DNA of 64,000 bases from an uncultured Pseudomonadota bacterium (lineage in GTDB: Bacteria > Pseudomonadota > Alphaproteobacteria > Rs-D84). The notes under the pieces were generated by a model. The model worked only from the letters and a program-made list of their open reading frames with translations, did no database searches and had not been told where the DNA came from. Shown here in pieces: positions 26 to 54,500 of this stretch; position 1 is the stretch's first letter; every line of letters starts with the position of its first letter. The stretch spans positions 72,361 to 136,360 of the forward strand of contig CASETE010000013.1 in the NCBI GenBank assembly GCA_949290785.1, given 5' to 3'. Made by a program: the position numbers and the translations under genes.

Positions 26-535
26 ATGAAAAGTCTTTTAAAATTAGTAAGTTTTTCTTTTTTATTGACAGCTTTCATAGTGCCAGTTGCGTTTGCAGTG
101 TGCCCTGTGTGTACCGTTGCGGTTGGCGCTGGATTGGAAGGGGCGCGTTTATTAGGCGTTGATGACGTTATAACAGGAATTTGGGCTGGCGGTTTAACTT
201 TGTCTTTGTTCTTTTGGACGGCGGGTTGGTTAAAAAAGCGCGGCGTTAAAAGCGTTTGGTGGCAAATTATTGTACCGTTTGTAGTTTATTATGCGTTGTT
301 GGGGTTGGTTTATGCCCTGCCCGGCGTATATTTTGGTGCTAATACTCTTTGGGGAATTGATAAATTCTTGTTGGGGACAATTGTTGGCACTGTTGCTTTT
401 TACCTTGGAGCGCGTTGGTATATCAAAATCAAACGTGAAAACGGCGGACACGCAAAGTTTGCATTTCAAAAGGTCGTTGTCCCGTTATCTTTCTTGTTGG
501 TTGCAACGCTTATATTCTGGTTAATCACAATGTAA
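26..535 (+). CDS. polytopic membrane protein with N-terminal CPVC motif, function unknown
   Basis: 169-aa ORF with a purine-rich RBS (AAGGAAGG, 11-18) before ATG 26. About five hydrophobic spans. Its only two cysteines form C-P-V-C right after span 1 (AFAVCPVCTVAVG). No family recognised. Confidence 0.5.
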   Translation: MKSLLKLVSFSFLLTAFIVPVAFAVCPVCTVAVGAGLEGARLLGVDDVITGIWAGGLTLSLFFWTAGWLKKRGVKSVWWQIIVPFVVYYALLGLVYALPGVYFGANTLWGIDKFLLGTIVGTVAFYLGARWYIKIKRENGGHAKFAFQKVVVPLSFLLVATLIFWLITM

Positions 536-553
536 TATCAAAAGGAATACGAT

Positions 554-1165
554 ATGAAGACCGTAAAAAATAAAAAAATGACGATGGAAGAAATGATTGC
601 AAAGGTTGATGCTTCTAAGAAGGTAAATCCTTTGGATTTGTCTTCTGACCAAGATTTGTCCATCGCGTTAATGAACTTGATTTCTTTGGAAGAACATTTC
701 TTTTTCAGCGGTGCAAAAACGCAAAAAACCGGTTTTTATGATTTAATAAATACAGTACGTGATATGCGTAAAGATTTAATGGCGCGTATAGTCAAAAAAT
801 CTACGGCTGAAAACGGTGAAGTTTGGTGCATTTCTAAGCACTTGTTGGCAGCATCTATGCGTATAATGGAGGTTGGAACGAAAGCGCTTGGTGCCGGTAA
901 CAAAAAAGATGCTTATGAACTGTTTAATAAGTCTTATGAATTATATTCTTTGTTCTGGGGAATTAACATGGACTTGATTGATTTGACGGGCGTACAAAAA
1001 GTTGCTCCGGACGTTTATGAAAAAGCAATGATGTCGTGTGGCGTTGAGGCAAAAGGTAAAAAATCCGGAAAAAAACAGCAAACAGAAGATGTTGCAAAGT
1101 CTAAATCGGCGGTGCAACGGTTGGGGAATTGGGTTAAAAACGCTGTTAATTGTTGTATAGAATAA
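554..1165 (+). CDS. hypothetical soluble protein (no signal peptide)
   Basis: 203-aa ORF starting 18 nt after the previous gene, with AAAGGA RBS at 541-546. Lys-rich C-terminus ending NCCIE. No recognisable motif. Confidence 0.45.
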   Translation: MKTVKNKKMTMEEMIAKVDASKKVNPLDLSSDQDLSIALMNLISLEEHFFFSGAKTQKTGFYDLINTVRDMRKDLMARIVKKSTAENGEVWCISKHLLAASMRIMEVGTKALGAGNKKDAYELFNKSYELYSLFWGINMDLIDLTGVQKVAPDVYEKAMMSCGVEAKGKKSGKKQQTEDVAKSKSAVQRLGNWVKNAVNCCIE

Positions 1166-1182
1166 AAAGTGTAAAATCGCTG

Positions 1183-1212
1183 TTGATTCACATTGTGCAA
1201 ATGTGATAAAAT
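1183..1212 (+). promoter_or_regulatory. candidate sigma-70 promoter with operator-like palindrome
   Basis: TTGATT (1183-1188), 18 nt, TAAAAT (1207-1212). The spacer holds a perfect 7-bp inverted repeat, TCACATT (1188-1194) / AATGTGA (1200-1206). Confidence 0.3.
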
Positions 1213-1233
1213 GCAGAAAGAGAGAATAAATAT

Positions 1234-3717
1234 TTGAGACCGAATTTGTGCGATTTTTATAAGTATTCTGTATTTGGAATAGCAATTCTTTTTGCGTCTG
1301 CGTCGTTTGCTTCGCAGGCGCCTAATCCTCGTTCTGCAACGGATACGGTTTCTGTCCCTGATACTTCTGGATTGCGGGCTGCTGGGCGCAATGTGGTTCA
1401 GACCAGTAATCAAAGTGCCAATTCGTCTGCGCGCGTAACGGCGGACCGTTCTGCAAACACCGTTTCGCGCAGTGCAACCAACAGACCTGCTGCGACAGTT
1501 TCAAGGAACGCGGTTTCTACAACTGTAAAGAACGTTAATAGTGGACGAAGCGCTACTACACGTCAAAATGTGGTGAATGTCGGCGCCAACAGTGCTAGAA
1601 CAGCTGCTGTTCCTTCGGCGCGTAGCGCTACGTCAAGCGTGGTGCGTAGTGGTGCGGTCCCGATGACATCAAGTGTTGCAAGGGCCGGAAAGACAAATAA
1701 TGTGGTTAATTCGTCTCGTTCTTCTGTTGCGCGCGCTACGGCGGTCTTTGACGACGTTTCAAAGATTGGTGGTGGATATGCTGCCTGTCGCGAGGCGTAT
1801 GCAACATGTATGGATCAATTCTGCGCAAAGGCAAACGAGACATATCGTCGTTGTTTCTGTAGTTCTAAGTATGCCGAGTTTCGCGATACAGAGGCTGCGC
1901 TAGACGAAGCAATCAATTTGCTGGCGCAGTTTGAGAGTAATAATTTGGAAGCGGTGGAATTATCGGCCGAAGAAGTTGCGGCTATGTACAGCGCAACCGA
2001 AGGTGAAAACGCAATTAAAAATGATACCAGTGCAGCGGCGTCTATGTTGTCAGAAATTTCAGATTTATTATCAGGCAATAAAAAGGCAACTACAAATACT
2101 AATACAGGGACTTCGCTGGGCATATTAGATATAGATTTTTCAACGGATTTAGGCGATATATGGGGAAATTCTGGTACTGGTTCTATATTTGACACCTCTA
2201 CTGGTGTAGATTTGTCCACGTTAGAGGGAGAAAGTTTATATAACGCCGCGCATAAACAATGTCTGGAGGTAATTTCAGATTCTTGCGAGAATACTGCGGT
2301 TTTACAAATGGCGCAAAGTGCATATGGAATATTGGTTACCCAGGATTGTAATACGTACGAGACTAAGATAGATAGTCAAAAAGAAAAAGTGCAACAGACT
2401 GTAAGAACGGCTGAAAAATATCTGCGCGAGGCAAGATTGGCCGAATATCGTTCTCACAATTCTGCCGACGTTAATGAATGCATCGGTAAAGTACAAAGTG
2501 CAATGACGACAGACGCTGCGTGTGGTGCTAATTATAAGAAGTGTTTAGATTATACCGGCGCGTATGTAAATCAAACCACGGGCGAGCCTATTTATTCACC
2601 CCGCCTGTTCCAATTGCAAGACTTAATTTCATTGGATGGCGTCAGCGACAACATATTGGGGCAGAATCCACAATTTAATTCTTTCTTGGATTCTAAACGT
2701 ATGTTTGCAGAATCTGCATTGGATACTTGTCGTGATATATCTGATATCGTATGGGAAGAATTTAAGCGCCAAGCCTTAATAGAAATTGCCCAGGCCCAAG
2801 ACGAAAAGATAGAAGAAGTAAAAATGTCTTGCGTCAGCACGATGGCAGATTGCTATGACACGCAAACAAGCGCGTTGAAAAATTTTGATGACACAACTGC
2901 GCAGTATGCTGGTGCAATCAGTGCTTATGCGGCAAAAGAAATGTGTCAAGATCAGGTTATTGCCTGTGCTTCGTTATACGGTGATGTAGAGGGGTGTAAG
3001 TTTGACGGTAATGGAAAACTTACCACTGGAAACAATGTATCTGGTGCAAATGCCAATCAGATGTGCGGTTTAACGTCTTTGTTGGCGTTTGTTGATACTG
3101 TTGATAACGTTCGTATATCAGAGGGTTGTACAGCAGCCATAGACAGTTATTTGAAAGAATTATGTACGCCGACTTCTGGTGACAAGGGTTATCCTTGGAA
3201 TTGCAGATTGAAAGAATTGGGTGACTTTAATACGGATAAACCAGACAGCAGTATTAATGCAACGTTGGCATCAAATATAAAACAATTTGCAATTACTAAC
3301 TGTACTGTTGGTGGAACCAGTTGGGACGATGTACCCGCACAATCCAGACAAGATGTACAGCAAACTGTGAACGGCTTGGCAGAAAGTACAGAGGCTGTAT
3401 TGAAAGATTCTTGCGAAGAATTAGGTGGTGTTTGGGTTAATAATGATACTTTCTCTGTAAACAATAATACATTGTTAAGTGCGTTTTATTCGCAGGTATA
3501 TGGCGGTGATACGTCGGCAACCAGTTGGGGAAAATGCGCGGAAAACACAACAATGATTCAATGCTTGAATTATAATTCTAGTGGTGCTGAACCTGTTGCA
3601 ACTTATGATTCAGCAAGTGATGAATGTGTGTTTACAGACGCTTGGTACGAAGAAAGATGTAGTATGTTGGGTGGTTATTATCAGGGTAGTACTTGTTATG
3701 TAAATAGTGATAAATAG
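1234..3717 (+). CDS. secreted cysteine-rich protein with Ser/Arg/Ala/Thr-rich N-terminal low-complexity region
   Basis: 827-aa ORF with a TTG start per the track. Signal-like VFGIAILFASASFA/SQA. Repeated (S/G/A)RSAT and VSR(S/N)A motifs at about nt 1330-1750. Then a Cys framework beginning ACREAYATCMDQFC (1782-1823). Confidence 0.7.
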   Translation: MRPNLCDFYKYSVFGIAILFASASFASQAPNPRSATDTVSVPDTSGLRAAGRNVVQTSNQSANSSARVTADRSANTVSRSATNRPAATVSRNAVSTTVKNVNSGRSATTRQNVVNVGANSARTAAVPSARSATSSVVRSGAVPMTSSVARAGKTNNVVNSSRSSVARATAVFDDVSKIGGGYAACREAYATCMDQFCAKANETYRRCFCSSKYAEFRDTEAALDEAINLLAQFESNNLEAVELSAEEVAAMYSATEGENAIKNDTSAAASMLSEISDLLSGNKKATTNTNTGTSLGILDIDFSTDLGDIWGNSGTGSIFDTSTGVDLSTLEGESLYNAAHKQCLEVISDSCENTAVLQMAQSAYGILVTQDCNTYETKIDSQKEKVQQTVRTAEKYLREARLAEYRSHNSADVNECIGKVQSAMTTDAACGANYKKCLDYTGAYVNQTTGEPIYSPRLFQLQDLISLDGVSDNILGQNPQFNSFLDSKRMFAESALDTCRDISDIVWEEFKRQALIEIAQAQDEKIEEVKMSCVSTMADCYDTQTSALKNFDDTTAQYAGAISAYAAKEMCQDQVIACASLYGDVEGCKFDGNGKLTTGNNVSGANANQMCGLTSLLAFVDTVDNVRISEGCTAAIDSYLKELCTPTSGDKGYPWNCRLKELGDFNTDKPDSSINATLASNIKQFAITNCTVGGTSWDDVPAQSRQDVQQTVNGLAESTEAVLKDSCEELGGVWVNNDTFSVNNNTLLSAFYSQVYGGDTSATSWGKCAENTTMIQCLNYNSSGAEPVATYDSASDECVFTDAWYEERCSMLGGYYQGSTCYVNSDK

Positions 3718-3728
3718 GATATTTGTAT

Positions 3729-5015
3729 ATGATGAAAAAAATAGTACCTTTTTTATTAGTTACATTATGTATGCCAAGTACATCTCGTGCAGAAAATTGG
3801 GGATGGACTGATAGCACAATCGGATTTCAAAAATGTAATTCACATACTCTTACAGGGACAGAGGCTTGCATAGGTGTAAGTGCCAATCTTAATTGTGCAC
3901 CAAATAAGGCGTATGGGCGTTACGGTTTTGCCAATGGTGATGAGTATATGATACAAATGCTTGTCGCAAGAAAGTATACAGATGGTGGAATATATGTTTG
4001 TCCTACGCAAATAGAAGCAAGAAATTCTGATAACGACGATAAGGCATGGGTTGCATATGCCGACTTGTCTGCTGGCGACGCTTCGCGTTGCACTTGGTTG
4101 TGTAAAGAAGGCTATTCAGGTGAAAATTGTTTAAAACAAGAATCAGAAATTGATAGCTGTGATATCACATTGTTAAAACGAGAAAATTATTCTTCAATAA
4201 AACAGTTAAGAAGTGGTGCAGATATTACTTTCCCTGAATTTAGTTCTGAAAATGTTAAAAACGATTCTTGTTCTAAAAATAACGAACAAGAACACGTACG
4301 TTTGGTTATGATTACCAATTGGACAGCAAGTGGACATGGCGCGTTTGCCAGGGTTATGATAATCAGGGCAGAAACACAAACCGCAAATAAAAAAATTACA
4401 TCTTTTCCATGGATTTATCCTGCCAGCGGCAGTACAGAAAAACTGTTATGTAAAAATGGTTATAAACCAAATGCTACAAAAACGGATTGTGTCGCGATAG
4501 ATTCTAATATATGTAACGCGCAACAATTGTGTGACGGTTGGGACGGTTTTGATGAAAATATACATGTTTTTTATAAGCCAGCTACCCAAAAAACTTTGTG
4601 TTATCAATATAGATGTTTAGAGGCCGGAACAGCGTTCGTTTCGTCTTCTAATAGAAGTTGTGCACCGTGCATAAATGATGCTAGGGATGGCGTTTCTCCT
4701 GCTGATGGCACGTGTATAAAATGTGGTCTGGGTCAGATATTTGATGAAACCGCCCTGTCTTCTGGATACTGCGCACCCGCTGATGCCTATTCCAAGACAG
4801 ATATGATGTACGGCAAGGGTAAAACAAAATCCAGTGTGCCAAATATTAAAAATCAATGTTGGACTATGAATAGTCCGCAGGAATATTTAAATTGCGTAAA
4901 GGGCATTTTGACTGGTGGCAATATATTGCAAGTTGATTCACAAAGACGCACCACAACCGCCAGTCAAGAATTATTAAATAACCTGTCAAATATAAATCTG
5001 TTTAATAAACAATAA
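3729..5015 (+). CDS. secreted cysteine-rich protein
   Basis: ATG 3729 lies 8 nt after AGGAT, and the track start at 3723 is TTG. Signal peptide MMKKIVPFLLVTLCMPSTSRA/EN. Many Cys, including the EGF-like CTWLCKEGYSGENC and CKNGYKPNATKTDC. Confidence 0.7.
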   Translation: MMKKIVPFLLVTLCMPSTSRAENWGWTDSTIGFQKCNSHTLTGTEACIGVSANLNCAPNKAYGRYGFANGDEYMIQMLVARKYTDGGIYVCPTQIEARNSDNDDKAWVAYADLSAGDASRCTWLCKEGYSGENCLKQESEIDSCDITLLKRENYSSIKQLRSGADITFPEFSSENVKNDSCSKNNEQEHVRLVMITNWTASGHGAFARVMIIRAETQTANKKITSFPWIYPASGSTEKLLCKNGYKPNATKTDCVAIDSNICNAQQLCDGWDGFDENIHVFYKPATQKTLCYQYRCLEAGTAFVSSSNRSCAPCINDARDGVSPADGTCIKCGLGQIFDETALSSGYCAPADAYSKTDMMYGKGKTKSSVPNIKNQCWTMNSPQEYLNCVKGILTGGNILQVDSQRRTTTASQELLNNLSNINLFNKQ

Positions 5016-5016
5016 A

Positions 5017-5043
5017 AAAAAACCGTTTAAAAACGGTTTTTTT
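5017..5043. terminator. bidirectional intrinsic terminator
   Basis: A-run, CCGTTT...AAACGG hairpin, then T-run, sitting between convergent genes. Confidence 0.6.
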
Positions 5044-5452
5044 ATAATCCGTTTAAACTTTTTAGCATTTTCATAACCATTTTTCTTTGGTCATCATGCG
5101 GAAGTTTCCAATATAAGTTGATTAATTGCAAAGACTCGTTCTTTGATAGCGGGTCGTTTGAATTTTGTTCTGATACACGTGATACTTTCCCGTTCCTTGG
5201 CTGTTCTGGCATATTGCCCGGCAACCCCAAAAAGAAAAACGATACGGGGGTTTCAAGTGCAGTGCTTAATTCAAATAGACGCGAAGCGGATATACGATTG
5301 CCCGCGCTTTCGTATTTTTGAATTTGTTGGAATGTAACACCACAAATTTTTGCCAAATCTTTTTGTGACATTCCCATCATTATTCTGCGCAATTGAACAC
5401 GTTGCCCAATATGCTCGTCTACGGCTGTCGGAGTAAATGTTTTACTGCTCAT
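5042..5452 (-). CDS. XRE-family helix-turn-helix transcriptional regulator
   Basis: HTH_3 core GQRVQLRRIMMGMSQKDLAKICGVTFQQIQKYESAGNRISASRLFELSTALETPVSFFF. Confidence 0.85.
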   Translation of the reverse strand: MSSKTFTPTAVDEHIGQRVQLRRIMMGMSQKDLAKICGVTFQQIQKYESAGNRISASRLFELSTALETPVSFFFLGLPGNMPEQPRNGKVSRVSEQNSNDPLSKNESLQLINLYWKLPHDDQRKMVMKMLKSLNGL

Positions 5453-8213: not shown

Positions 8214-8834
8214 ATGGCTATCAATTTAAAAGCAGAAATTCGCAATGTTGCCGGCAAGGGGGCCGCACGTAGCATTCGTAACAATAAAAATATTCCAGCC
8301 GTTATATACGGTGAAAAAAAATCGCCTGTTGCAATTGAATTAAGCGGGCGTGATTTTGAAATGTTATTAAAAACACCAAGTTTGCGTACTAAATTGTTCC
8401 AAATTGAAACGCCAAACGGTAAAGAAGATGCGATGTTAATGGATATTCAATATCATCCTGTGTCTGACGCTGTAATTCATGTGGACTTTAAACGCATAGA
8501 CGTTAAAAAGCCTGTAAACGTAAGCGTTCCAGTAGAAGTTGTTAATATGGAAACTTCCAGAGGCTTGAAACTGGGTGGCGTATTGAACTTTGCCGTTCGT
8601 AAGGTTGCTTTGCGCGGTTTGGTTAATGATATTCCAGAAAAAATTACAATTGATTTGGCAAATCTAAATATCGGTGAATCCGTTCACGGAACTGATTTGG
8701 TATTGCCAAAAGGCGTTGAATTAGGCTTGCATCAAGCAGAATTGGCGTTCGCAACAATCGGCGGTAAAATGCCAGAAGAAGCAGACGCTAAAAAAGCAGC
8801 AGCATCAGCAGCAACTGACGCGGCAAAAAAATAA
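8214..8834 (+). CDS. rplY: 50S ribosomal protein L25 / Ctc
   Basis: N-terminus LKAEIRNVAGKGAARSIRNNKNIPAVIYG. Long Ctc-type form with an Ala/Lys-rich tail. Confidence 0.9.
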   Translation: MAINLKAEIRNVAGKGAARSIRNNKNIPAVIYGEKKSPVAIELSGRDFEMLLKTPSLRTKLFQIETPNGKEDAMLMDIQYHPVSDAVIHVDFKRIDVKKPVNVSVPVEVVNMETSRGLKLGGVLNFAVRKVALRGLVNDIPEKITIDLANLNIGESVHGTDLVLPKGVELGLHQAELAFATIGGKMPEEADAKKAAASAATDAAKK

Positions 8835-8855
8835 AAAATTTCGTTTTATAAATTT

Positions 8856-8882
8856 AACCACCCTGGTTTGGGTGGTTTTTTG
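8856..8882 (+). terminator. intrinsic terminator after rplY
   Basis: AACCACCC (8856-8863) / GGGTGGTT (8870-8877) hairpin followed by a T-run. Confidence 0.7.
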
Positions 8883-8900
8883 TTATTTTTTTCCTGTGGT

Positions 8901-8929
8901 CTTGAAATTGTTTTTGGTATTAACTATAT
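8901..8929 (+). promoter_or_regulatory. candidate sigma-32 (RpoH) heat-shock promoter of dnaK
   Basis: CTTGAAA (8901-8907), 14-nt spacer, AACTATAT (8922-8929). The E. coli RpoH consensus is CTTGAAA-N13-15-CCCCATNT. Lies about 35 nt upstream of the dnaK ATG. Confidence 0.45.
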
Positions 8930-8965
8930 GGTATCTTAGTAAAAGAGTTTGAAGGAGTGAAACAA

Positions 8966-37487: not shown

Positions 37488-37662
37488 AATCCTTTTTATT
37501 TGCTTAACTACTATATTATTTATATCTTAGCATTTTATCAAGAATAAAGTTGTTTCCATATATAAACATTTTTTTCGTATTAAGAAAGCATACCTGTTTA
37601 TGCGTATCTGCCGCGAGCGTTATAATATAATCATAACAAACTTAGTAAAAAGGAGAGAAAAA

Positions 37663-38415
37663 ATGTGCGAAATTTGTGGACACAATCACATACCAACAAT
37701 GCCCTTGATAGGCGATAAAGCACCGGCATTCAGCGCAAATACAACCAATGGTAATATAAATTTTCCTGATGACTATTCAGGTAAATGGGTGATTCTGTTT
37801 TCTCATCCGGCAGATTTTACCCCGATATGTACAACAGAGTTTATGACCTTTCAAAGCATGATACAAGACTTTAAAAAATTAAATACGGAAATTATCGGGC
37901 TGTCTATTGGTACTCTGACTGGGCACCTTGCTTGGATACACGCGATTAAGAATATTGAATACAATGGTTGGCATGATATGAATATAACCTTCCCCATTAT
38001 TGACGATATGAATATGCAGATTGCAAAACAATACGGTATGTTACACCCAAACGCGTCAGACGGAAAAACCGTTCGCGCTGTTTTTATTATTGACCCCAAC
38101 GGTATAATAAGAACGATTTTGTATTATCCTTTGACAACCGGCAGAAACTTTGAAGAGATTAAACGTATTTTAATAGCCTTGCAGACAACTGATGCATTTC
38201 AAATCGCTACGCCGGCGGATTGGTATCCTGGCGATGATGTTGTCGTGCCTGCCCCCAGCACAACGGACGATATGATAAAACGTCTAAACAGACACGATAA
38301 AACGTTAGATGTAAAAGCATGGTTCTTGACTTTTAAAAAATTGAAAGAAAACGATATTTATACCAAGTTAACAACCGGACCTAAAAAAAACGCAAAAAAA
38401 GAAATAACAAAATAA
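37663..38415 (+). CDS. peroxiredoxin (Prx6-like)
   Basis: ATG 37663 follows AAGGAG. WVILFSHPADFTPICTTEF peroxidatic Cys motif. N-terminal CEICGH extension and Lys-rich tail. Confidence 0.88.
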   Translation: MCEICGHNHIPTMPLIGDKAPAFSANTTNGNINFPDDYSGKWVILFSHPADFTPICTTEFMTFQSMIQDFKKLNTEIIGLSIGTLTGHLAWIHAIKNIEYNGWHDMNITFPIIDDMNMQIAKQYGMLHPNASDGKTVRAVFIIDPNGIIRTILYYPLTTGRNFEEIKRILIALQTTDAFQIATPADWYPGDDVVVPAPSTTDDMIKRLNRHDKTLDVKAWFLTFKKLKENDIYTKLTTGPKKNAKKEITK

Positions 38416-40188: not shown

Positions 40189-41436
40189 TTATTTACTGAT
40201 GCAGTTCGCAAACGATTGAGCCACAAACGATGTTTCTATACTGCTTAGAGTTGCAACCGGTATGATGAAGCACCGTGAACTGTCACGAATAATAAACACC
40301 TTGGTGCCACGTTTGTATGCTGTTTGCATGTCGTCCATTTGCGCGCTGGTCAAGAAAGCATTTTGTGTTGTTGCAGGGTTGGTCAGGCCAGCTTGAACGA
40401 CTTGGAACGCTGTGTTATAGTCGTTTATTTCAGATAAAGACGTAACTTCCATATAAACGCTCCAATTTTCATATGGATTTTCTGTGGTTTTTGTTGCAGT
40501 TGGGAATGCCACGCCTGTTGCCAATGCTGCCGCCGTTTGTAACGTAGTCGGCTCAGATGAGTTTGAAGTAGGATGAGATACCGTGTTTAATTGTAGATTA
40601 TCACCACATGCCGTATTCATTCTATTTACATAACTGGCAACGACCCCGTCAACTGCGGCTTGCCAATCTTCGCTCTTTTTATTCAAGTCCAGATTTACAA
40701 TTTTTTCCGCCCAACCCCATATGTTAGCGCCGACATTGCCGGCATTTGCAAATCGCGTAACCATTTCAGCAGAACCACCAGGAACACCTGCCCCACACGC
40801 GTCTGTTAATTGTGACGTCAACATGCTGCTGGTTTCATTACCATAAGCCAATGCAACTGCCTGACAGGCCAATGCTGCTTCTAATTCTTGGCGGCGTTGT
40901 ATGCACAAATCTGAACGGGACTTGGATAATTTATCTGCCATGTTCGCCATAGACAAATAAGACATAACTTCTTGTTGAACATAAGGTAAACATAATCTTG
41001 CAGCTGTATTCATTCCGCCAGAACCAGTTCTGGTGTTAACGTTGTATTGCGGCAACAAGACGCTTGTATCTTTTTGAATGCACAACAAAGTATAGTTATA
41101 CAGTTCGTTTTCTGTTATATATTGGCATCTGCCAGAAGTCTGACCTGGTAAAACTGTGACGTCACCGCAATATTCTGATAAGCAATTGTAAATTCTTTCA
41201 CGGCACGCTGAATCAACATCCGGTTGCGTAACCATATAATAAGTATTGCGTTGATTCTGAACATAGGCGTTCGCCAGCCCTTGATTACCACGAAGTCCGT
41301 TTGTCGTTGTGGGCGTGGTTACAGAAACATTTCTTGATAAATCAGATGCACCAACAGTACCGGCAGAAACGGCCATAGCATCTGCTGCGCCAAAACTTAT
41401 TAATAATAAACTTGCCAGAAAAGCGGTATTTTTCAT
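40189..41436 (-). CDS. secreted protein, paralog of the 1234-3717 product N-terminal region
   Basis: Signal peptide MKNTAFLASLLLISFGAADA/MA. LSRNVSVTT then ACRERIYNCLSEYC (41167-41208), parallel to VSRNAVSTT and ACREAYATCMDQFC in ORF 1234-3717. Confidence 0.7.
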   Translation of the reverse strand: MKNTAFLASLLLISFGAADAMAVSAGTVGASDLSRNVSVTTPTTTNGLRGNQGLANAYVQNQRNTYYMVTQPDVDSACRERIYNCLSEYCGDVTVLPGQTSGRCQYITENELYNYTLLCIQKDTSVLLPQYNVNTRTGSGGMNTAARLCLPYVQQEVMSYLSMANMADKLSKSRSDLCIQRRQELEAALACQAVALAYGNETSSMLTSQLTDACGAGVPGGSAEMVTRFANAGNVGANIWGWAEKIVNLDLNKKSEDWQAAVDGVVASYVNRMNTACGDNLQLNTVSHPTSNSSEPTTLQTAAALATGVAFPTATKTTENPYENWSVYMEVTSLSEINDYNTAFQVVQAGLTNPATTQNAFLTSAQMDDMQTAYKRGTKVFIIRDSSRCFIIPVATLSSIETSFVAQSFANCISK

Positions 41437-44872: not shown

Positions 44873-45502
44873 TTATTCTTCAATGTTAGAATATTCGCAA
44901 AAGCCTTCATTTGTATCACACCGAGAAATCGTGCCTTCGCTGATGAAATATCCCTGTGGATGCAAGCATGCAGGGCATACTTTTGGCGCTTCTGTACCAA
45001 TGTGCCACATACCACAATTTGTGCAACGCCACATAACGATTTTATCTTGTTTGAATAAAGTACCGTTTTCAATCGCGTCTATTAACGCACGGAAACGAGA
45101 TTCGTGATAGCGTTCCGCATAACCAATATTCTTTAAAATAGAAGCAATTGCATCAAAACCTTCTTGCGCAGCAATCTGTGCAAATTTTGGATACATAACT
45201 GTGTTTTCTTCGTGTTCGCCGTATGCTGCTGCTTGTAAATTTTCTAAAGTAGTACCAATTTTACCGGCAGGATATGAAGCCGTTATTTCTAAATCGCCGC
45301 CTTCCAAAAACTTGAACAAACGAGATGCGTGTTCGCGTTCTTGTTCCGCAGTTTCTAAAAATATTTTAGAAATCGCTTGGTAACCTTCATCTTTCGCCTT
45401 TGAAGCAAAGAAGCTATAACGATTGCGAGCCTGAGATTCCCCGGCAAATGCAATTAACAAATTCTTTTCGGTTTGGGTACCTTTTAATGATACTGTTGCC
45501 AT
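44873..45502 (-). CDS. rbr: rubrerythrin
   Basis: ATG 45502 follows AAGGAGAA. Di-iron ferritin-like motifs (GESQARNRY, EQEREHA, EHEENTVMY, AERYHESRF) plus a C-terminal rubredoxin-like CTNCG...CPAC. Confidence 0.88.
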   Translation of the reverse strand: MATVSLKGTQTEKNLLIAFAGESQARNRYSFFASKAKDEGYQAISKIFLETAEQEREHASRLFKFLEGGDLEITASYPAGKIGTTLENLQAAAYGEHEENTVMYPKFAQIAAQEGFDAIASILKNIGYAERYHESRFRALIDAIENGTLFKQDKIVMWRCTNCGMWHIGTEAPKVCPACLHPQGYFISEGTISRCDTNEGFCEYSNIEE

Positions 45503-45590
45503 TATGTTTTCTCCTTTATATATCTGATTGTTAATTTGTGGTCTGAATGTTATCAAAAAACATTTCAAAAAGCAATTTTATTATACGAGG

Positions 45591-46619
<1,029 letters not shown>

Positions 46620-46627
46620 TTAAAAAC

Positions 46628-46657
46628 TTGCAATTTCCACAGTAAATATTATATAAT
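46628..46657 (+). promoter_or_regulatory. candidate sigma-70 promoter of ssrA
   Basis: TTGCAA (46628-46633), 18 nt, TATAAT (46652-46657). Confidence 0.5.
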
Positions 46658-46662
46658 TAGCA

Positions 46663-46985
46663 CTGTCGCGAAAGCGATGATGATTCTGAAACCGTTGCGA
46701 AATAGTCGTTTTGGACTGGGGGGCGGTACCCCACAGCTCCACCAATAAAACATATGGGGCTGACATAGTTTCGACAGGCGCAGTAAAGGCAAATCGGCTG
46801 AATCCGACGTGGCGTCGTTAAAAGCTAAATAAAAACTGAATGGCGATAGAATCGCTGCGAACGACAACGTTCGCCTTGCAATGGCTGCCTAAGATGGCTT
46901 GGATATGATTGGCAATTGTTGATTGTATCCGTTATAGCTTATTGCGGGGTCGCTGGGTGCCCGGCAACAGAAACCCAGCATATAT
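46663..46985 (+). ncRNA. ssrA: permuted (two-piece) tmRNA gene, acceptor piece then coding piece; ends approximate
   Basis: T-arm TGGGG-GGCGGTA-CCCCA then CAGCTCC-A-CCA ends at 46744. Eleven nt later GGGGCTGA...TTCGACAGG (46756-) starts the coding piece. GGGGCUG pairs with CAGCUCC, giving a G3-U wobble. Tag ORF GCT GCG AAC GAC AAC GTT CGC CTT GCA ATG GCT GCC TAA (46854-46892) encodes (A)ANDNVRLAMAA. Confidence 0.85.
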
Positions 46986-50034: not shown

Positions 50035-51327
50035 TTAACCGTTTACAAATTCAATCACACGATTATCAAAAATTATGTCTCTTGCTTGTAAGGGTGAAGA
50101 CACATGTATGTCGCCAGCGTTACGCGTCCGAGAAAGCGCAACATACGTCTGACCATGGGCAAACGCACCGCGAGAAATGTCTACGACAACGGCATCCAGT
50201 GTTTTACCTTGGGCCTTGTGTATGGTCATTGCATACCCCAGATTTAACGGGAATTGCTTAAAACTGCCGACTTCGTTTTCTTGCAGTCTGTCATTTTCAT
50301 CACGGACATATTCTATTTTAACCCATTTTTCTGGTTTGACCGTTACTATATCATGATTCGTATTCAGAAGTTCTACCTGTATATCTTTTGCGCCAAGGTA
50401 TTTGACTATCCCCATAGAGCCGTTATGCCATTTGTCTCCGTTTTTAACAAAGACAACTAACGCACCGACTTTCAAACTTAAACTCATAGGTGCAGGCACA
50501 TCACGTTCTTGGAAAGTACCGGACAATTCCCCATTATACACCACCGTCGGCGCAGGTATTTCAGCAAGACGATTGCTATTAACTCTTTCCGCAACTGCCC
50601 GAAAAGGCGTTATTAACACAGCATTACTTCTTCGCTCTAAATCTTCTATTTTGCAGTTGTTGAAAAAACTTAACGCAGACAAATCGTTGCTTCGTAACCT
50701 AGATAAACTTTCCAATAAACATGTATCGTTTTGGCGGTATACAAAATCAAAATCATACCTTAAAAAATTTGCACGTTTGTAAACATTGCTATCAAAAAAA
50801 TACGCGTTTGAATGTTCGTATGCTTGCTGATAATAATCCATCGCATCTCGTGTGATAACCGGAGGCAGTTGAAACAAGTCGCCTATGGCAACAACCTGTA
50901 AGCCGCCGAAAGGCTCGTTATTATGACGCGCCATGCGTGCAAGAATATCTATTGCGTCTAATAAATCAGGGGCCACCATAGATATTTCGTCAATAACAAG
51001 TACGTCGGTCGCGTTTAAAATGTTACGCGGTTTAGCCTTTAACTTTAACAATTCAGGCATTATAAAATCACGCGGCTGAATCTGAAATAAAGAATGAATC
51101 GTTTGTCCGCCAACGTTCAGCGCTGATACTGCTGTCGGACATGCGCAAACTATTCTTTTCTTTGACGCCGACTTTAAATAATTTACAAAAGTTGATTTTC
51201 CGGTTCCCGCCTGCCCTAGAATTAACAAATTAGAATTTGTGCGTTCAATACAATTAAACGCTTGTTTTTGCACGTCGTTTAAAATAGATACTAATTCTGA
51301 CATATGTTTATATATTGTCATAAGCAA
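50035..51327 (-). CDS. Pif1/RecD-like superfamily-1 DNA helicase
   Basis: GQAGTGKSTF, VIDEISMV, FGGLQVVAIGDLFQLPPV, AMTIHKAQGKT, YVALSRTR. Confidence 0.8.
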   Translation of the reverse strand: MLMTIYKHMSELVSILNDVQKQAFNCIERTNSNLLILGQAGTGKSTFVNYLKSASKKRIVCACPTAVSALNVGGQTIHSLFQIQPRDFIMPELLKLKAKPRNILNATDVLVIDEISMVAPDLLDAIDILARMARHNNEPFGGLQVVAIGDLFQLPPVITRDAMDYYQQAYEHSNAYFFDSNVYKRANFLRYDFDFVYRQNDTCLLESLSRLRSNDLSALSFFNNCKIEDLERRSNAVLITPFRAVAERVNSNRLAEIPAPTVVYNGELSGTFQERDVPAPMSLSLKVGALVVFVKNGDKWHNGSMGIVKYLGAKDIQVELLNTNHDIVTVKPEKWVKIEYVRDENDRLQENEVGSFKQFPLNLGYAMTIHKAQGKTLDAVVVDISRGAFAHGQTYVALSRTRNAGDIHVSSPLQARDIIFDNRVIEFVNG

Positions 51328-51396: not shown

Positions 51397-51473
51397 GGGT
51401 TAGTAGCTCAGTTGGTTAGAGCGGAGCGCTCATAACGCTTTGGTCGTGGGTTCAAGTCCTACCTAACCCACCA
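51397..51473 (+). tRNA. tRNA with CAU anticodon (elongator Met or lysidine-modified Ile2; not distinguishable by eye)
   Basis: GGGTTAGTAGCTCAGTTGGTTAGAGC...GAGCG-CTCATAA-CGCTT...GGGTTCAAGTCC...CTAACCCACCA. Confidence 0.88.
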
Positions 51474-51593: not shown

Positions 51594-54500
51594 ATGGAGA
51601 AAATCCGCAGTTTTCTTGGCGTTTTAGTGTCATTATTTGTTATTTCTATACCCGGCAAAGTGTTGGCCGCAGACGTTTACGTTTGTAATGAGTTGATAGA
51701 ATATGTAGAATGTAACGCAAATTTTTATTTGGCTGGTAACACTTGCGAAGCATGCCCATCTGGTCAATACAACTTTGGTAATGGTAATTCTCAAAATTGG
51801 CAATCTACGACCCCAGACGCGAACTCCAACGCGGCTTGTGAATGTCCAGAATTCTGGGCGGCTCAAGGCGGCGGAACCCAAGTTATATATGGTGAAGTGT
51901 GCGTTCCACAAACCATAGAATGTAAGCCGGGTGAATACTTTGATACAGGAACAAAAAAATGCACGATTTGTCCTGCTGGCTATTATTGCCCTGGCGGCGA
52001 AATACAGCCCGCAAACGTTACTTTAAATGGCGGCAAAATAAACTGTCCAAAAGGTTATCCTTACTCCGAAACGGGCGCAAAAGCCATTACGGAATGCTAT
52101 CGCGGCGAAACAGAGGTAAAATGGACCGGCGTTCAAAAAGAATGTAAATTACCAGAAAATTGTGCGTCTGTAAAATGCGAAGAATGCTCTTTGCCCAACT
52201 GCAAATTCAAAATATATTGTAATGCTGACGGCCTAACGGATGCACCTTTGCCGCCATGCGACGAACCCTGCGAGCAAAAAATTGTTTATCTTGAAGCTAA
52301 TCCGGGGGCTTATACTGTTGGAACAGAGGGTTGTAAAATGTGCCCTGAAAAATATCAAGATGGACCAGGCGTAACAAGCGAAGCCGATTGTATATATTAT
52401 GAAACAAAATATGGTAAACAGTTAGATCCAGCATTGCCAAGCGGGTGTACCGATATGAAGTTGGGTACTTGTACACCAAAAACATGTCAAGTCGTGCATA
52501 CATACGGCGGTGAAACAACGCCCTGCACTCCACAAGACTGTACAAAACCAATAACCAGCGTGACAGCGGCTGAAAATAATTATGCTTCCGGTACTTCTTG
52601 TATTGCTTGCGAAGCAGGATATACCGCCCCCGCTGGTGCAACAGATCCAAAAGAATGTACCAAACAATGTTCGGTTAAATGTACAAAACCAACTTGCCCA
52701 GAAAACAGTGAAAACTGCGAAATCACAGAATCTTTCATAGTTGGTAAAGAAAACCAAGTTGATAAGGTATGCGATGCGGTGCCGCAGGTCTGTGAAATGA
52801 CATTTTCTTGTAAAAAAGGATATAAAGAATATGAAGGGCAATGTATACCAGAAACTTATACCGTATCATATAATTGCGGTACAGGCGGTGGCGTAGCACC
52901 TGGTGGTTCTTCACAGCAATATGGCGGTCAATATCAAATCGCTGCAAATACATGTACTAAACCAGGATTTAATTTCGTTGGCTGGGGTGATGGCACAAGC
53001 GTTCAACAACCAGGAAAAATTACATGGAATTATACTTCTGACATAACGTTTACTGCACAGTGGGAACCTTGTCCGAACGATCCTAGTGCTGTCGGCACAT
53101 GTGGTTGTGCAGAAAAACAATATCCAAACGGTAATGGGTGTTCTGACTGCGTTGTCTCTTGTCAAAGCGAGGCAGAATTCAATCAAGGCAGTTATAATGT
53201 ATGTAATTCAGAAACAACAAGCCGTTGTTACAGAAATTGTACTACATCAGACGTTTCGCACTCTTCCGCTGTAACAGGAACAATTACAAAAGGCGGAACG
53301 AACACCTGTAAGGCAAGTGCTTGTTTGGCGAATTATTTCTTGGATAACGGTCAATGCATGGCTTGTGTAGAAAACGCTACTTGTCCAGGCGGAACGGAAT
53401 CATTTAAATGTAATACCGGATATCACACTTCCGCTGACGGCGACAGTTGCGAACCAGACGAATATAAAATAACTCTGAACAAAAATGGTGGTACGGGCGA
53501 CATTAATGGATATACCGGTACAACAGACGCGGTACAGACTTGCCAATACGGTGTACTGTGCTATCTGCCGACCGAAGGTCTAACAAGAACAGGATATGAA
53601 TTTACCGGCTGGGGCGACAATGCAGGTTGTACAAGCGGTGTATTACAAGACACATTTACATCCAGCAAAACCTTATATGCTTGCTGGTCTCAACAAACAA
53701 CCCAATGTCAAGCGGGCAAATATTATGACGGTGAAAACCACATAGAATGTCCTTCTGGTAAATTCTGCCCGGGCACTGGCTCTGCAAACATTGGTCAACC
53801 GGGTTGCGCGTCCGATTGTCCGATAGGCTATGACGGTTCAACACCTGGCGCAAGTGCAGCCACTGCCTGTTACAAAAACTGTGGGGGCAAATCTATTACA
53901 GGCGGTACGGCAACGGTTGTAGCGCCAAAGGTATTCTATAACGGTTCATCATATCCAGCATGTACATATAATGTTACATGTAACGAAGGATATGTGGCTG
54001 CTGGTCAAGGAACCGCAGGCGCAACCTGTACGAAGTGTCAAGATGGAGAATACTGCCCTGGCGGCTCTGGTGAAAGCCCAGAGGATTGCCCAGCAGGCTC
54101 GTATTGCGAGGAAGGCATTAAAAAAGATTGCCCTGTTGGCGGTACGTCACAATCAGGTGCCGGTTCCATTAACGAATGCTATAAGGTATGTCCGCCTACC
54201 CTAGAAATTGCAAACGGTCAGGGCGTATCAACAGGGAACCAGTATTATGACGGTTCTGTATATCCAGAATGCTTGTTTAACGCGAATTGCGATGAAAATT
54301 ATGTCGCGATAAACAGCCCAAGCACGAATCCTGCGTGTATATGGGGCGACCCAGGCGACTGTCCTGTTGGGTTCTATTGCCCAGAAGACGGCAGTGGTCC
54401 TATTCCGTGCCCAGACGGTGGTACATCATTGGCGGGTTCAACAGCAGTTACACAATGCTATAAAATATTTGACCCGTATTCAGAGTTTCAAAATGGCGTT

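What the first reader, a model, noticed from the sequence alone, without database searches (positions are those of the whole stretch)
26..5043. Four-gene unit: CPVC membrane protein, soluble protein and two Cys-rich exoproteins, closed by a terminator
Seen: four same-strand ORFs are separated by 18, 68 and 11 nt, each preceded by a purine-rich RBS. The unit ends in a strong bidirectional hairpin (5017-5043). An internal promoter-like element with a palindrome lies before gene 3. Genes 3 and 4 (827 and about 429 aa) have Sec signals and many cysteines. Genes 1 and 2 match nothing I can name. Inference: the unit may handle production, oxidative folding or display of disulfide-rich surface proteins, related to the giant protein at 51594 and the paralog at 40189. 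The left boundary is unknown because the window starts at gene 1.
Basis: partly seen in the sequence, partly recalled or inferred. Interest (0 to 1): 0.6.

Follow-up and report, generated by a model that had tools for sequence, protein, structure and literature searches.

The report
Widespread CPxC membrane / CC-tail gene pair
The "four-gene unit" is two neighbouring two-gene operons in a small-genome gut alphaproteobacterium: an unnamed membrane-plus-cytoplasmic protein pair with invariant cysteine motifs that recurs in many reduced-genome bacteria and probably handles thiol/disulfide chemistry, followed by two cysteine-rich secreted proteins found, as far as tested, only in this lineage.

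Summary
In detail: four same-strand ORFs (26-535, 554-1165, 1234-3717, 3729-5015), the stated gaps, ribosome-binding sites and a closing hairpin. The organism is a Candidatus Enterousia-like alphaproteobacterium (order Rs-D84, genome about 1 Mb). It is not one functional unit. Conserved sigma-70 promoters precede gene 1 and gene 3 in about 60 related genomes. Genes 1-2 form a tight pair also found in CPR bacteria, Dependentiae, some Gammaproteobacteria and other gut Alphaproteobacteria. In 65 of 68 environmental loci with room, a gene-1 homolog lies directly upstream of the gene-2 homolog. Cys-rich neighbours are almost always absent there (2 of 65 loci). Gene 1 is a four-helix membrane protein with an invariant CPxC right after its signal peptide. 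Gene 2 is a cytoplasmic helical protein with an invariant Cys/His stripe and a C-terminal CC-x-E tail. Relatives of gene 2 are fused to thioredoxin or glutaredoxin domains, and a membrane-anchored CPHC thioredoxin-like gene often precedes the pair. Neither gene matches Pfam, NCBIfam or PDB. Best reading: an undescribed transmembrane thiol-disulfide module, direction unknown and unproven. Genes 3-4 are secreted proteins with 28 and about 18 invariant cysteines. No significant similarity links them to the ORFs at 40189 or 51594.

The parts
26..535 (+). g1 ('G1'): 169-aa membrane protein. It has a signal peptide (1-24, ending AFA), then an invariant V-C-P-V-C at the mature N-terminus, a short amphipathic helix and four transmembrane helices. 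The K/R-rich loops 70-76 and 134-149 are predicted to be cytoplasmic.
   Evidence: ORF. Among 28 Rs-D84 homologs 73 columns are invariant. Across 35 diverse homologs C26, C29, W53 and G121 are invariant, and P27, G44, D46, D47, G110, D112 and K113 are at least 90% conserved. The AF2 model has pLDDT 78. No Pfam, NCBIfam or PDB relative was found.
554..1165 (+). g2 ('G2'): 203-aa cytoplasmic helical-bundle protein. It has a conserved stripe E89-W91-C92-K95-H96-R103-E106-K110, an EEH motif (46-48), a variable linker and an invariant C-terminal RLGxWVKNAVNCCIE tail.
   Evidence: ORF. Tail conservation is shown, and family-wide conserved residues. The AF2 model is a four-helix bundle with pLDDT 64. 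No Pfam, PDB or fold match was found.
1183..1212 (+). Conserved sigma-70-type promoter for g3-g4: TTGATT, 18 nt, extended -10 TG-A-TAAAAT.
   Evidence: Found by the scan. The motif TTGATT-N17/18-TGATAAAAT followed by AGAGAGA and TTG is conserved in nearly all of 64 Rs-D84 genomes.
1188..1206 (.). 7-bp inverted repeat TCACATT / AATGTGA (5-nt spacer) inside the promoter spacer. It is not conserved.
   Evidence: It is present only in the window and in L011, the 96-98% identical relative.
1234..3717 (+). g3: 827-aa secreted protein with a signal peptide (cleavage about SFA/SQA), about 140 aa of variable low-complexity Ser/Ala/Arg/Thr/Asn-rich sequence and a conserved domain with 28 invariant cysteines.
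   Evidence: The 28 Cys are conserved in 64-66 of 66 homologs. No Pfam, PDB or plasmid match was found.
3729..5015 (+). g4: 428-aa fast-evolving secreted protein with a signal peptide, about 18 invariant cysteines and two EGF-like Cx(3)CxxGYxGxxC-type motifs.
   Evidence: Median identity to Rs-D84 homologs is 33%. The only Pfam hit is cEGF at E = 0.4, which is not significant.
5016..5043 (.). Bidirectional intrinsic-terminator-like hairpin AAAAAAACCGTTT-TTAA-AAACGGTTTTTTT between convergent g4 and the HTH gene.
   Evidence: It folds at -13.8 kcal/mol with z = -3.4.
5042..5452 (-). Right boundary: a convergent HTH_3 (DicA/Cro-like) regulator. It is syntenic in most Rs-D84 genomes but is not part of the unit.
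   Evidence: Pfam HTH_3 at 7.8e-12.

Best explanation
The region holds two adjacent bicistronic operons in a Candidatus Enterousia-like (Rs-D84) gut alphaproteobacterium. Operon 1 (g1-g2) is a deeply conserved, unnamed two-protein module. G1 is a four-helix inner-membrane protein that displays a CPxC pair at its processed, periplasm-facing N-terminus. G2 is a cytoplasmic helical-bundle protein with a conserved Cys/His/Glu/Arg stripe and a flexible linker that ends in an amphipathic helix plus a vicinal CC-x-E carboxy-terminus. I propose that the two act together as a transmembrane thiol-disulfide (dithiol) exchange system. In many other lineages they would be joined by a membrane-anchored extracytoplasmic CPHC thioredoxin-like protein. 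G2 would link the membrane component to the cytoplasmic thiol pool, and G1's CPxC would serve exported cysteine-containing proteins. This would be analogous in logic to DsbD/CcdA-thioredoxin or DsbB/VKOR-DsbA, but without homology and in organisms reported to lack respiratory chains. The direction (oxidising or reducing) is not known. Operon 2 (g3-g4) has its own conserved promoter and encodes disulfide-rich secreted or envelope proteins that I found only in Rs-D84. These are plausible clients of such a system, but they sit next to it only in this clade. Shown here: gene structure, conservation, co-occurrence, motifs, fusions and promoters. Inferred: topology, redox function, the G1-G2 contact and the client relationship.
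For: (1) The pair is tightly coupled. In 65 of 68 environmental loci with room, a G1 homolog lies immediately upstream of the G2 homolog on the same strand, with gaps mostly from -4 to +20 nt. The pair also occurs in Dependentiae, Parcubacteria, two gammaproteobacterial loci and other gut Alphaproteobacteria, in unrelated genomic contexts. (2) Both proteins are strongly constrained. Median identity across Rs-D84 is 79% for G1 and 73% for G2, against 66% for RsmH and 84% for DnaE. (3) The cysteine motifs are the most conserved features: CPxC in G1, and C92 plus the C-terminal CC-x-E in G2, which ends all 62 full-length representatives selected for carrying it and all 30 distant members of A3. 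(4) G2 homologs are fused to Thioredoxin (P0278, 28 bits, above cutoff, CGSC) and Glutaredoxin (P0300, 33.7 bits, above cutoff, CPHC) domains. (5) A TM-anchored Trx/Grx-like CPHC gene lies directly upstream of G1 in 19 of 50 environmental loci with room, and between mlaB and G1 in the two gammaproteobacterial loci. DsbD_2-cupredoxin and Cu-type P-ATPase genes lie nearby in 11-13 loci. (6) Two homologs carry inteins inserted exactly before the Cys92 equivalent, which marks a functionally critical site. (7) By the positive-inside rule the CPxC faces outward, and G2 has no signal peptide. (8) Rs-D84 genomes lack respiratory chains (PMC12306168). About 20% of bacterial species lack DsbB, VKOR and MauE, so undiscovered pathways are expected (preprint 10.64898/2026.03.05.709764). 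(9) Separate conserved promoters precede g1 and g3. g3 has 28 and g4 about 18 invariant Cys.
Against: There is no biochemical evidence and no homology to any thiol oxidoreductase. G1 has only one Cys pair and no cytoplasm-facing Cys, so a purely thiol-based relay requires G2's tail or G1's N-terminal helix to reach into the membrane. That is speculation. In a ruminant-associated Enterousia subclade (9 loci) G2 has lost C92, H96, EEH and the CC tail, or is reduced to 74-98 aa, while G1 stays intact with CPVC. G1 can therefore work without a canonical G2, unless another copy exists elsewhere in those genomes. No fam2 thioredoxin-like gene lies in the window or within 8 kb of g1 in the Rs-D84 genomes. 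Neighbours in other lineages also include NifS/NifU and Cu-ATPase genes, which would fit metal handling equally well. The AF2 model of G2 has only moderate confidence (pLDDT 64), and neither model matches a PDB fold.
Confidence: 0.42

Rival explanations
1. G1-G2 is a metal-handling module for Cu(I), Fe or Zn. The periplasmic CPxC plus the conserved GxDD and GxDK acidic residues of G1 would bind or translocate a thiophilic metal. G2 would be a cytoplasmic metallochaperone or sensor that ligates the metal through C92, H96, Glu residues and the CC tail.
For: Cu-type P-ATPase (CPC motif) genes occur in 13 of the 80 environmental loci, DsbD_2+Cupredoxin_1 in 11, NifU_N in 7 and NifS in 6, often directly upstream of the pair. 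A CorA gene follows the pair in one gut alphaproteobacterium. G2's conserved Glu/His/Cys residues on a helical bundle resemble a metal site. CxxC and vicinal CC are classic soft-metal ligands (established knowledge).
Against: The fusions are to dithiol Trx/Grx domains (CGSC, CPHC), not to HMA/CopZ-type domains. The most frequent conserved neighbour is a Trx-like CPHC protein (22 loci). Copper loci commonly include thiol-redox genes anyway, for example Scs (established knowledge). No metal-transporter family matched G1.
Confidence: 0.22
2. One reading: all four genes form one operon dedicated to producing, oxidatively folding or displaying the Cys-rich exoproteins g3/g4, together with the ORFs at 40189 and 51594.
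For: The order g1-g2-g3-g4 is conserved in most Enterousia genomes. No terminator-like site was found between g2 and g3, so read-through is possible. g3 and g4 have many invariant Cys and would need a disulfide-forming system.
Against: Conserved promoters stand before g1 and before g3. Rs-D84 genomes L080-L086 have rsmH-g1-g2 followed by kdsD-rpsP-rimM-trmD, with no g3/g4. The pair occurs widely without Cys-rich neighbours (2 of 65 loci). The whole flank dnaE...gpmI is equally syntenic, so adjacency carries little information. There is no significant similarity to the ORFs at 40189 or 51594.
Confidence: 0.1
3. G1 is an essential envelope or transport protein whose CPxC is structural or regulatory. 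G2 is an accessory regulator, for example a redox- or zinc-switch protein docking on G1's cytoplasmic loops. There would be no electron or thiol relay across the membrane.
For: G1 is more conserved than G2 and persists where G2 degenerates. In Gammaproteobacteria the module is appended to the mlaFEDCB lipid-transport operon, and in some CPR bacteria it is next to YceG/MltG or PspC genes. C-x3-H plus a Cys pair resembles zinc redox switches (recalled from memory, not tested).
Against: It does not explain the recurrent extracytoplasmic CPHC thioredoxin-like neighbour or the Trx/Grx fusions. The CPxC sits at the very start of the mature protein and is invariant across phyla, which is more typical of an active site.
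Confidence: 0.2

Closest known systems
DsbD / CcdA with periplasmic thioredoxin-like partners (ResA, CcmG/TlpA, Etrx; ScsB-ScsC)
   Same: All have a membrane protein with a redox-active Cys pair. All link a cytoplasmic thioredoxin-type donor to an extracytoplasmic, membrane-anchored Trx-fold protein, and are often encoded beside copper-resistance genes. The Trx(CPHC)-G1-G2 gene order and the Trx/Grx fusions of G2 fit this logic.
   Different: No sequence or profile similarity was found: no DsbD or DsbD_2 Pfam hit for 35 G1 homologs. G1 has four helices and a single CxxC at the mature N-terminus, not two membrane-embedded Cys on separate helices. It has a dedicated cytoplasmic partner with a CC tail, which DsbD/CcdA lack. 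A genuine DsbD_2 gene co-occurs in 11 loci, so G1 is not simply its replacement there.
DsbB, VKOR and MauE (membrane disulfide generators that re-oxidise DsbA-like proteins)
   Same: All are small multi-helix membrane proteins with an active-site Cys motif at the extracytoplasmic membrane face, paired with a CPHC thioredoxin-fold protein.
   Different: Those enzymes pass electrons to quinones, and DsbB and VKOR need a second Cys pair. G1 has one pair, and its hosts in Rs-D84 lack respiratory chains (PMC12306168). There is no significant Pfam match: VKOR at E = 0.056 in 1 of 35 members, and no DsbB or MauE hit. MauE has a CXC-F-G motif, whereas G1 has CPxC-T/V.
Shuttle cysteines on flexible tails (Erv2p C-terminal CGC arm; ribonucleotide reductase C-terminal Cys pair; DsrC C-terminal arm). 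Recalled from memory, not tested.
   Same: G2 combines a helical-bundle core with a conserved Cys, a long variable linker and a conserved terminal Cys pair. This is the architecture of a swinging redox arm.
   Different: There is no homology and no CxxC next to a flavin site. G2's Cys pair is vicinal (CC) and followed by an invariant Glu at the carboxy-terminus. No cofactor is known for it.
Cysteine-rich envelope proteins of Chlamydia (OmcA/OmcB outer-membrane complex). An analogy for g3/g4 only.
   Same: Both are secreted proteins with many conserved cysteines in a reduced-genome, host-associated Gram-negative bacterium. They are plausibly disulfide cross-linked envelope or surface components.
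   Different: No sequence similarity was detected to any Pfam or PDB family. g3/g4 were found only in Rs-D84 among the sequences I could examine.

Membership tests
DsbB (PF02600) | Profile match to the family; four TM helices with CxxC in periplasmic loop 1 and a second Cys pair in loop 2; quinone dependence. | tested here: not met
   There was no Pfam hit at E <= 1 for the window G1 or for 34 diverse homologs. G1 has only one conserved Cys pair. Quinone dependence cannot be tested with these tools.
VKOR (PF07884) | Profile match; four-TM bundle with CxxC at TM4 and a loop Cys pair. | tested here: not met
   One of 35 G1 homologs gave E = 0.056, far below the gathering score and not significant after multiple testing. 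The single Cys pair lies at the mature N-terminus.
DsbD / CcdA / DsbD_2 (PF02683, PF13386) | Profile match; two membrane-embedded Cys on different helices. | tested here: not met
   No hit for G1. A separate, genuine DsbD_2+Cupredoxin_1 protein (93.7 bits) is a neighbour in 11 loci.
MauE (PF07291) | Profile match; CXC active site followed by conserved F-G (preprint 10.64898/2026.03.05.709764). | tested here: not met
   No Pfam hit. The G1 motif is CP[VIL]C followed by T/V/I.
RseC/MucC (PF04246) | Profile match above the gathering score. | tested here: not met
   Four of 35 G1 homologs hit weakly, with a best E of 0.0031 in a single-protein search. This is below threshold and not significant for 35 proteins against 24,736 models.
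Thioredoxin/glutaredoxin fold (neighbour 'fam2' and fusion partners of G2) | Pfam Thioredoxin or Glutaredoxin match and a CxxC active site. | tested here: met
   The fusions meet it: P0278 matches Thioredoxin at 28.0 bits (cutoff 23.5, CGSC) and P0300 matches Glutaredoxin at 33.7 bits (cutoff 22.9, CPHC). The free-standing fam2 proteins score just under cutoff (22.2 and 20.0 bits) but carry a conserved C[PG]HC after a TM anchor.
Any curated family for G2 | Match in Pfam, NCBIfam, PDB sequences or PDB folds. | tested here: not met
   There was no Pfam hit at E <= 0.01 beyond chance for 30 distant members. There was no NCBIfam hit. The PDB profile searches returned only designed helical repeats. 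The best Foldseek E-value was 0.69.
EGF-like domains (g4) | Pfam EGF/cEGF match above threshold. | tested here: not met
   cEGF gave E = 0.4 at 11 bits against a 26.6-bit cutoff. Only the motif CxxGYxGxxC is visible by eye.
Paralogy of g3/g4 with ORF 40189-41436 and ORF 51594-57758 | Significant pairwise or profile similarity. | tested here: not met
   blastp found nothing at E < 0.01. hhalign probabilities were below 1%. hmmsearch with the A4 and A5 profiles gave E > 1.

The most novel reading that the evidence does not exclude
G1 (CPxC membrane protein) and G2 (cytoplasmic CC-tail protein), with an extracytoplasmic CPHC thioredoxin-like partner in many lineages, constitute a previously unrecognised, quinone-independent pathway. 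It would make, isomerise or reduce disulfide bonds outside the cytoplasm. It appears characteristic of reduced-genome, partner-dependent bacteria (CPR/Patescibacteria, Dependentiae, Rs-D84 and some Gammaproteobacteria). [quoted passage not shown]
Probability: 0.3. Interest if true: 0.85.

Novelty: new variant of a known kind. Interest (0 to 1): 0.62.

Why it matters
If the g1-g2 module is a thiol-disulfide system, it would be a new protein-family solution to a basic problem. That problem is how bacteria without quinones or respiratory chains manage cysteine chemistry outside the cytoplasm. CPR bacteria, Dependentiae and gut Rs-D84 Alphaproteobacteria all fall in this group. About a fifth of bacterial species have no recognised disulfide-forming enzyme. 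The pair is small, strongly conserved and has clear-cut motifs. It can be tested directly in E. coli dsb deletion strains. For the gut organism itself, it would explain how heavily disulfide-bonded surface proteins are made, including g3, g4 and the 167-Cys giant protein at 51594. Even if the redox reading is wrong, two large unnamed families with intein-marked active sites and strict co-occurrence are worth naming and curating.

Tried and rejected
- Pfam and NCBIfam scans of g1-g4 found nothing. Pfam scans of 30 distant G2 and 35 diverse G1 homologs found nothing significant.
- PDB sequence-profile searches with A1, A2, A3, A4, A5 and A6 returned only designed helical repeats or chance hits.
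- AlphaFold2 models of G1 and G2 were searched with Foldseek against the PDB. No match had E < 0.6.
- UniRef labels one G1 homolog 'DUF3429 domain-containing'. My Pfam scans did not reproduce any DUF3429 hit, so I did not use the label.
- A CaaX-like prenylation reading of the CCIE terminus was considered (effector of an intracellular bacterium). I rejected it because the motif is equally conserved in CPR bacteria, whose hosts are prokaryotes, and because position X varies (I/K/R/H/L) while the terminal Glu is fixed.
- A RiPP-precursor reading of G2 was rejected because the 150-aa N-domain carries enzyme-like invariant residues and an intein site.
- The palindrome as a conserved operator was rejected.
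- Paralogy of g3/g4 with the ORFs at 40189 and 51594 was rejected.
- tblastn of g3 against plasmids found no match. There are no tandem repeats in g3's low-complexity region at the DNA level.
- A literature search for this pair in CPR disulfide biology found nothing relevant.


Full report
**Observation**

The four + strand ORFs exist as described. They are g1 at 26-535 (169 aa), g2 at 554-1165 (203 aa), g3 at 1234-3717 (TTG start, 827 aa) and g4 at 3729-5015 (428 aa). The gaps are 18, 68 and 11 nt, and purine-rich ribosome-binding sites precede the genes. A perfect 12-bp hairpin with a 4-nt loop, flanked by A and T runs, lies at 5016-5043. It sits between g4 and a convergent HTH_3 gene at 5042-5452. 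It folds at -13.8 kcal/mol, z = -3.4 against shuffles. g3 has 29 Cys and g4 has 23 Cys. None of the four proteins matches Pfam or NCBIfam.

**Organism and left boundary**

Contigs that encode an identical g2 protein extend the locus upstream to secA, dnaE and rsmH. rsmH ends 57 nt before g1. Homologs carry the names Candidatus Enterousia, Alphaproteobacteria or 'Rickettsiales' MAGs from animal guts. The window also carries an alphaproteobacterial tmRNA. Enterousia belongs to order Rs-D84, with genomes of about 0.7-1 Mb. These genomes have no TCA cycle or respiratory chain, and a partner-dependent lifestyle has been suggested (PMC12306168).

**One unit or two?**

I compared 80 Rs-D84 genomes. 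The order dnaE-rsmH-g1-g2-g3-g4-(HTH)-gpmI is conserved in most of them. The whole flank is equally syntenic, so adjacency alone says little.

More distant members (L080-L086) have dnaK-rsmH-g1-g2 followed by kdsD-rpsP-rimM-trmD, with no g3 or g4. L057 has g1-g2 followed by what look like restriction-modification genes, judged by eye.

Both intergenic regions carry phylogenetically conserved sigma-70 promoters:
- Before g1: TTGACC (overlapping the rsmH stop), 17-18 nt, then TG-TACGAT.
- Before g3: TTGATT, 17-18 nt, then TGATAAAAT, followed by an AGAGAGA ribosome-binding site and a TTG start, in nearly all of 64 genomes.

Evolutionary rates also differ between the genes. Median identity across Rs-D84 is 79% for g1, 73% for g2, 54% for g3 and 33% for g4. 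For comparison, RsmH is 66% and DnaE 84%.

The region is therefore two adjacent bicistronic operons.

**The g1-g2 pair**

G1 homologs in Rs-D84 have 73 invariant positions among 28 sequences.

Named members come from Parcubacteria, Paceibacterota and Moranbacteria (CPR), from Dependentiae, from two 'Gammaproteobacteria GW' MAGs, and from gut Alphaproteobacteria. All are annotated as hypothetical.

I scanned metagenome contigs with a profile built only from distant G2 members, which returned 80 loci. In 65 of the 68 loci with room, a G1 homolog lies immediately upstream on the same strand, usually overlapping by 4 nt or separated by fewer than 20 nt.

The same pair is found in several other contexts:
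- A Dependentiae contig and a Parcubacteria contig.
- Two gut alphaproteobacterial contigs, where the pair is followed by CorA or an HD-domain gene.
- Two gammaproteobacterial loci, where it is appended to the mlaFEDCB operon and G2 is tandemly duplicated.

**Anatomy of the two proteins**

G1 has a variable signal peptide ending in AxA. The invariant C-P-[VIL]-C follows at positions 2-5 of the mature protein. Then come a short helix, a conserved G-x-D-D, and four transmembrane helices. Two K/R-rich loops (70-76 and 134-149) place the CPxC on the outside by the positive-inside rule.

G2 has no signal peptide. AF2 predicts a four-helix bundle at pLDDT 64. Family-wide invariant or near-invariant residues are D28, D34, E46/E47, H48, R69, R72, E89, W91, C92, K95, H96, R103, E106, K110 and the terminal C200-C201-x-E203. 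A variable linker separates the bundle from a conserved amphipathic helix that ends in the CC-x-E carboxy-terminus.

Two homologs carry LAGLIDADG inteins inserted exactly in front of the Cys92 equivalent. This is typical of functionally critical sites.

**Evidence for thiol chemistry**

- G2 homologs are fused to an N-terminal thioredoxin domain (CGSC) or an internal glutaredoxin domain (CPHC). Both score above the Pfam cutoffs.
- A membrane-anchored Trx/Grx-like protein with C[PG]HC is encoded directly upstream of G1 in 19 of 50 environmental loci with room. It also lies between mlaB and G1 in both gammaproteobacterial loci.
- Other recurrent neighbours are a Cu-type P-ATPase (13 loci), DsbD_2+Cupredoxin_1 (11), NifU_N (7) and NifS (6).

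Taken together, these suggest three components: an outside Trx-fold protein, a membrane protein with an outside CxxC, and a cytoplasmic partner with reactive Cys that links to Trx/Grx. This is the logic of DsbD/CcdA-type or DsbB/VKOR/MauE-type systems. G1 nevertheless matches none of those families, and neither protein has a PDB relative by sequence or fold.

A recent preprint shows that about 20% of species lack DsbB, VKOR and MauE, and that further pathways remain to be found.

**Caveats**

- G1 has only one Cys pair and no cytoplasm-facing Cys, so how equivalents would cross the membrane is unknown.
- In a ruminant-associated Enterousia subclade G2 has lost its conserved Cys, His and tail, or is a 74-98 aa remnant, while G1 is intact.
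- No Trx-like partner lies in the window or within 8 kb of g1 in Rs-D84.
- The metal-related neighbours keep a metal-handling function in play.

I put the thiol-disulfide relay at about 0.4, metal handling at about 0.2, and a non-relay envelope role with G2 as accessory at about 0.2.

**g3 and g4**

Both have signal peptides. g3 has about 140 aa of variable low-complexity sequence, followed by a domain with 28 cysteines conserved in 64-66 of 66 homologs. g4 evolves fast but keeps about 18 cysteines and two EGF-like motifs. They match no Pfam family, no PDB profile and no plasmid.

They are most simply disulfide-stabilised envelope or surface proteins of this lineage.

Cys-rich ORFs lie next to the pair in 61 of 80 Rs-D84 loci but in only 2 of 65 environmental loci.

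The suggested relatives at 40189 and 51594 show no significant similarity. The 51594 protein instead carries Listeria-Bacteroides repeats.

**Verdict**

The interesting object is the g1-g2 module: two large, unnamed, strictly co-occurring families with redox-type motifs, concentrated in reduced-genome bacteria.

Noticed in passing
P0329 and P0399 (G2 homologs); equivalent to window 827-829 (Cys92 codon of g2): Two G2 homologs carry LAGLIDADG-type inteins inserted exactly between the conserved Trp and the Cys of the GE-x-W|C-ISKHLL motif, so Cys92 is the +1 extein residue. Inteins in a protein family of unknown function are unusual, and they mark this site as critical.
   Followed up: partly
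L043, L046, L049, L050, L059, L061, L065, L075, L077 (about 8450-8950 in each locus): In a ruminant-associated Enterousia subclade g2 is degenerate. It has lost C92, H96, EEH and the CC tail, or is a 74-98 aa remnant, while g1 stays 76-87% identical with CPVC. In four of these genomes G1 gains a C-terminal ...RQT(T/V/G)GCGF extension with a new Cys.
   Followed up: partly
L171 6001-7014, L179 7001-8065 (P0406, P0257): In the two gammaproteobacterial loci G2 is a tandem duplication (337-354 aa). The first copy lacks the Cys and the tail. The Trx-like/G1/G2 genes overlap one another by a few bases and directly follow mlaFEDCB, as if they were part of the lipid-asymmetry operon.
   Followed up: partly
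L152 1896-2420 (-): One CPR contig carries a second, divergent G1 copy (CPLC motif) on the opposite strand about 3 kb from the canonical Trx-G1-G2 cluster.
   Followed up: no
Just upstream of window position 1 (L002 9405-9472): The conserved g1 promoter's -35 hexamer TTGACC overlaps the rsmH stop codon in nearly all Rs-D84 genomes. The window starts inside the g1 5' leader.
   Followed up: yes
window 51594-57758 (+): A giant 2054-aa ORF has 167 cysteines (8.1%) and Listeria-Bacteroides repeat (Flg_new) domains. It is probably a surface adhesin-type protein and another likely client for an extracytoplasmic disulfide system. It is not related to g3 or g4.
   Followed up: partly
window 40189-41436 (-): A 415-aa ORF with a signal peptide and 12 Cys shares only a short motif (SACRERIYNCLSEYC against AACREAYATCMDQFC) with g3. 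The similarity is statistically insignificant, so a remote relationship is neither shown nor excluded.
   Followed up: partly
window 46624-46982 (+): An alphaproteobacterial (permuted, two-piece) tmRNA gene scoring 157 bits. It confirms the class-level placement of the organism.
   Followed up: no
window 37600-38415 (+) and 44873-45568 (-): A peroxiredoxin (AhpC/1-Cys Prx, with about 36 extra N-terminal residues) and a rubrerythrin. These are oxidative-stress enzymes typical of anaerobes. No DsbA, DsbB or thioredoxin-family gene turned up in the window ORFs that I scanned against Pfam.
   Followed up: no
window 50035-51327 (-) next to tRNA 51397-51470: A PIF1/RecD-like helicase ORF (430 aa) lies beside a tRNA gene and just upstream of the giant Cys-rich ORF. 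It may be a remnant of a mobile element.
   Followed up: no
window 5042-5452 (-): The convergent HTH_3 regulator resembles DicA repressors and the N-terminal part of Wolbachia Wmk (E about 1e-10, far below both cutoffs). It is syntenic with g4 in most Enterousia genomes. Its stop codon lies inside the terminator hairpin.
   Followed up: no
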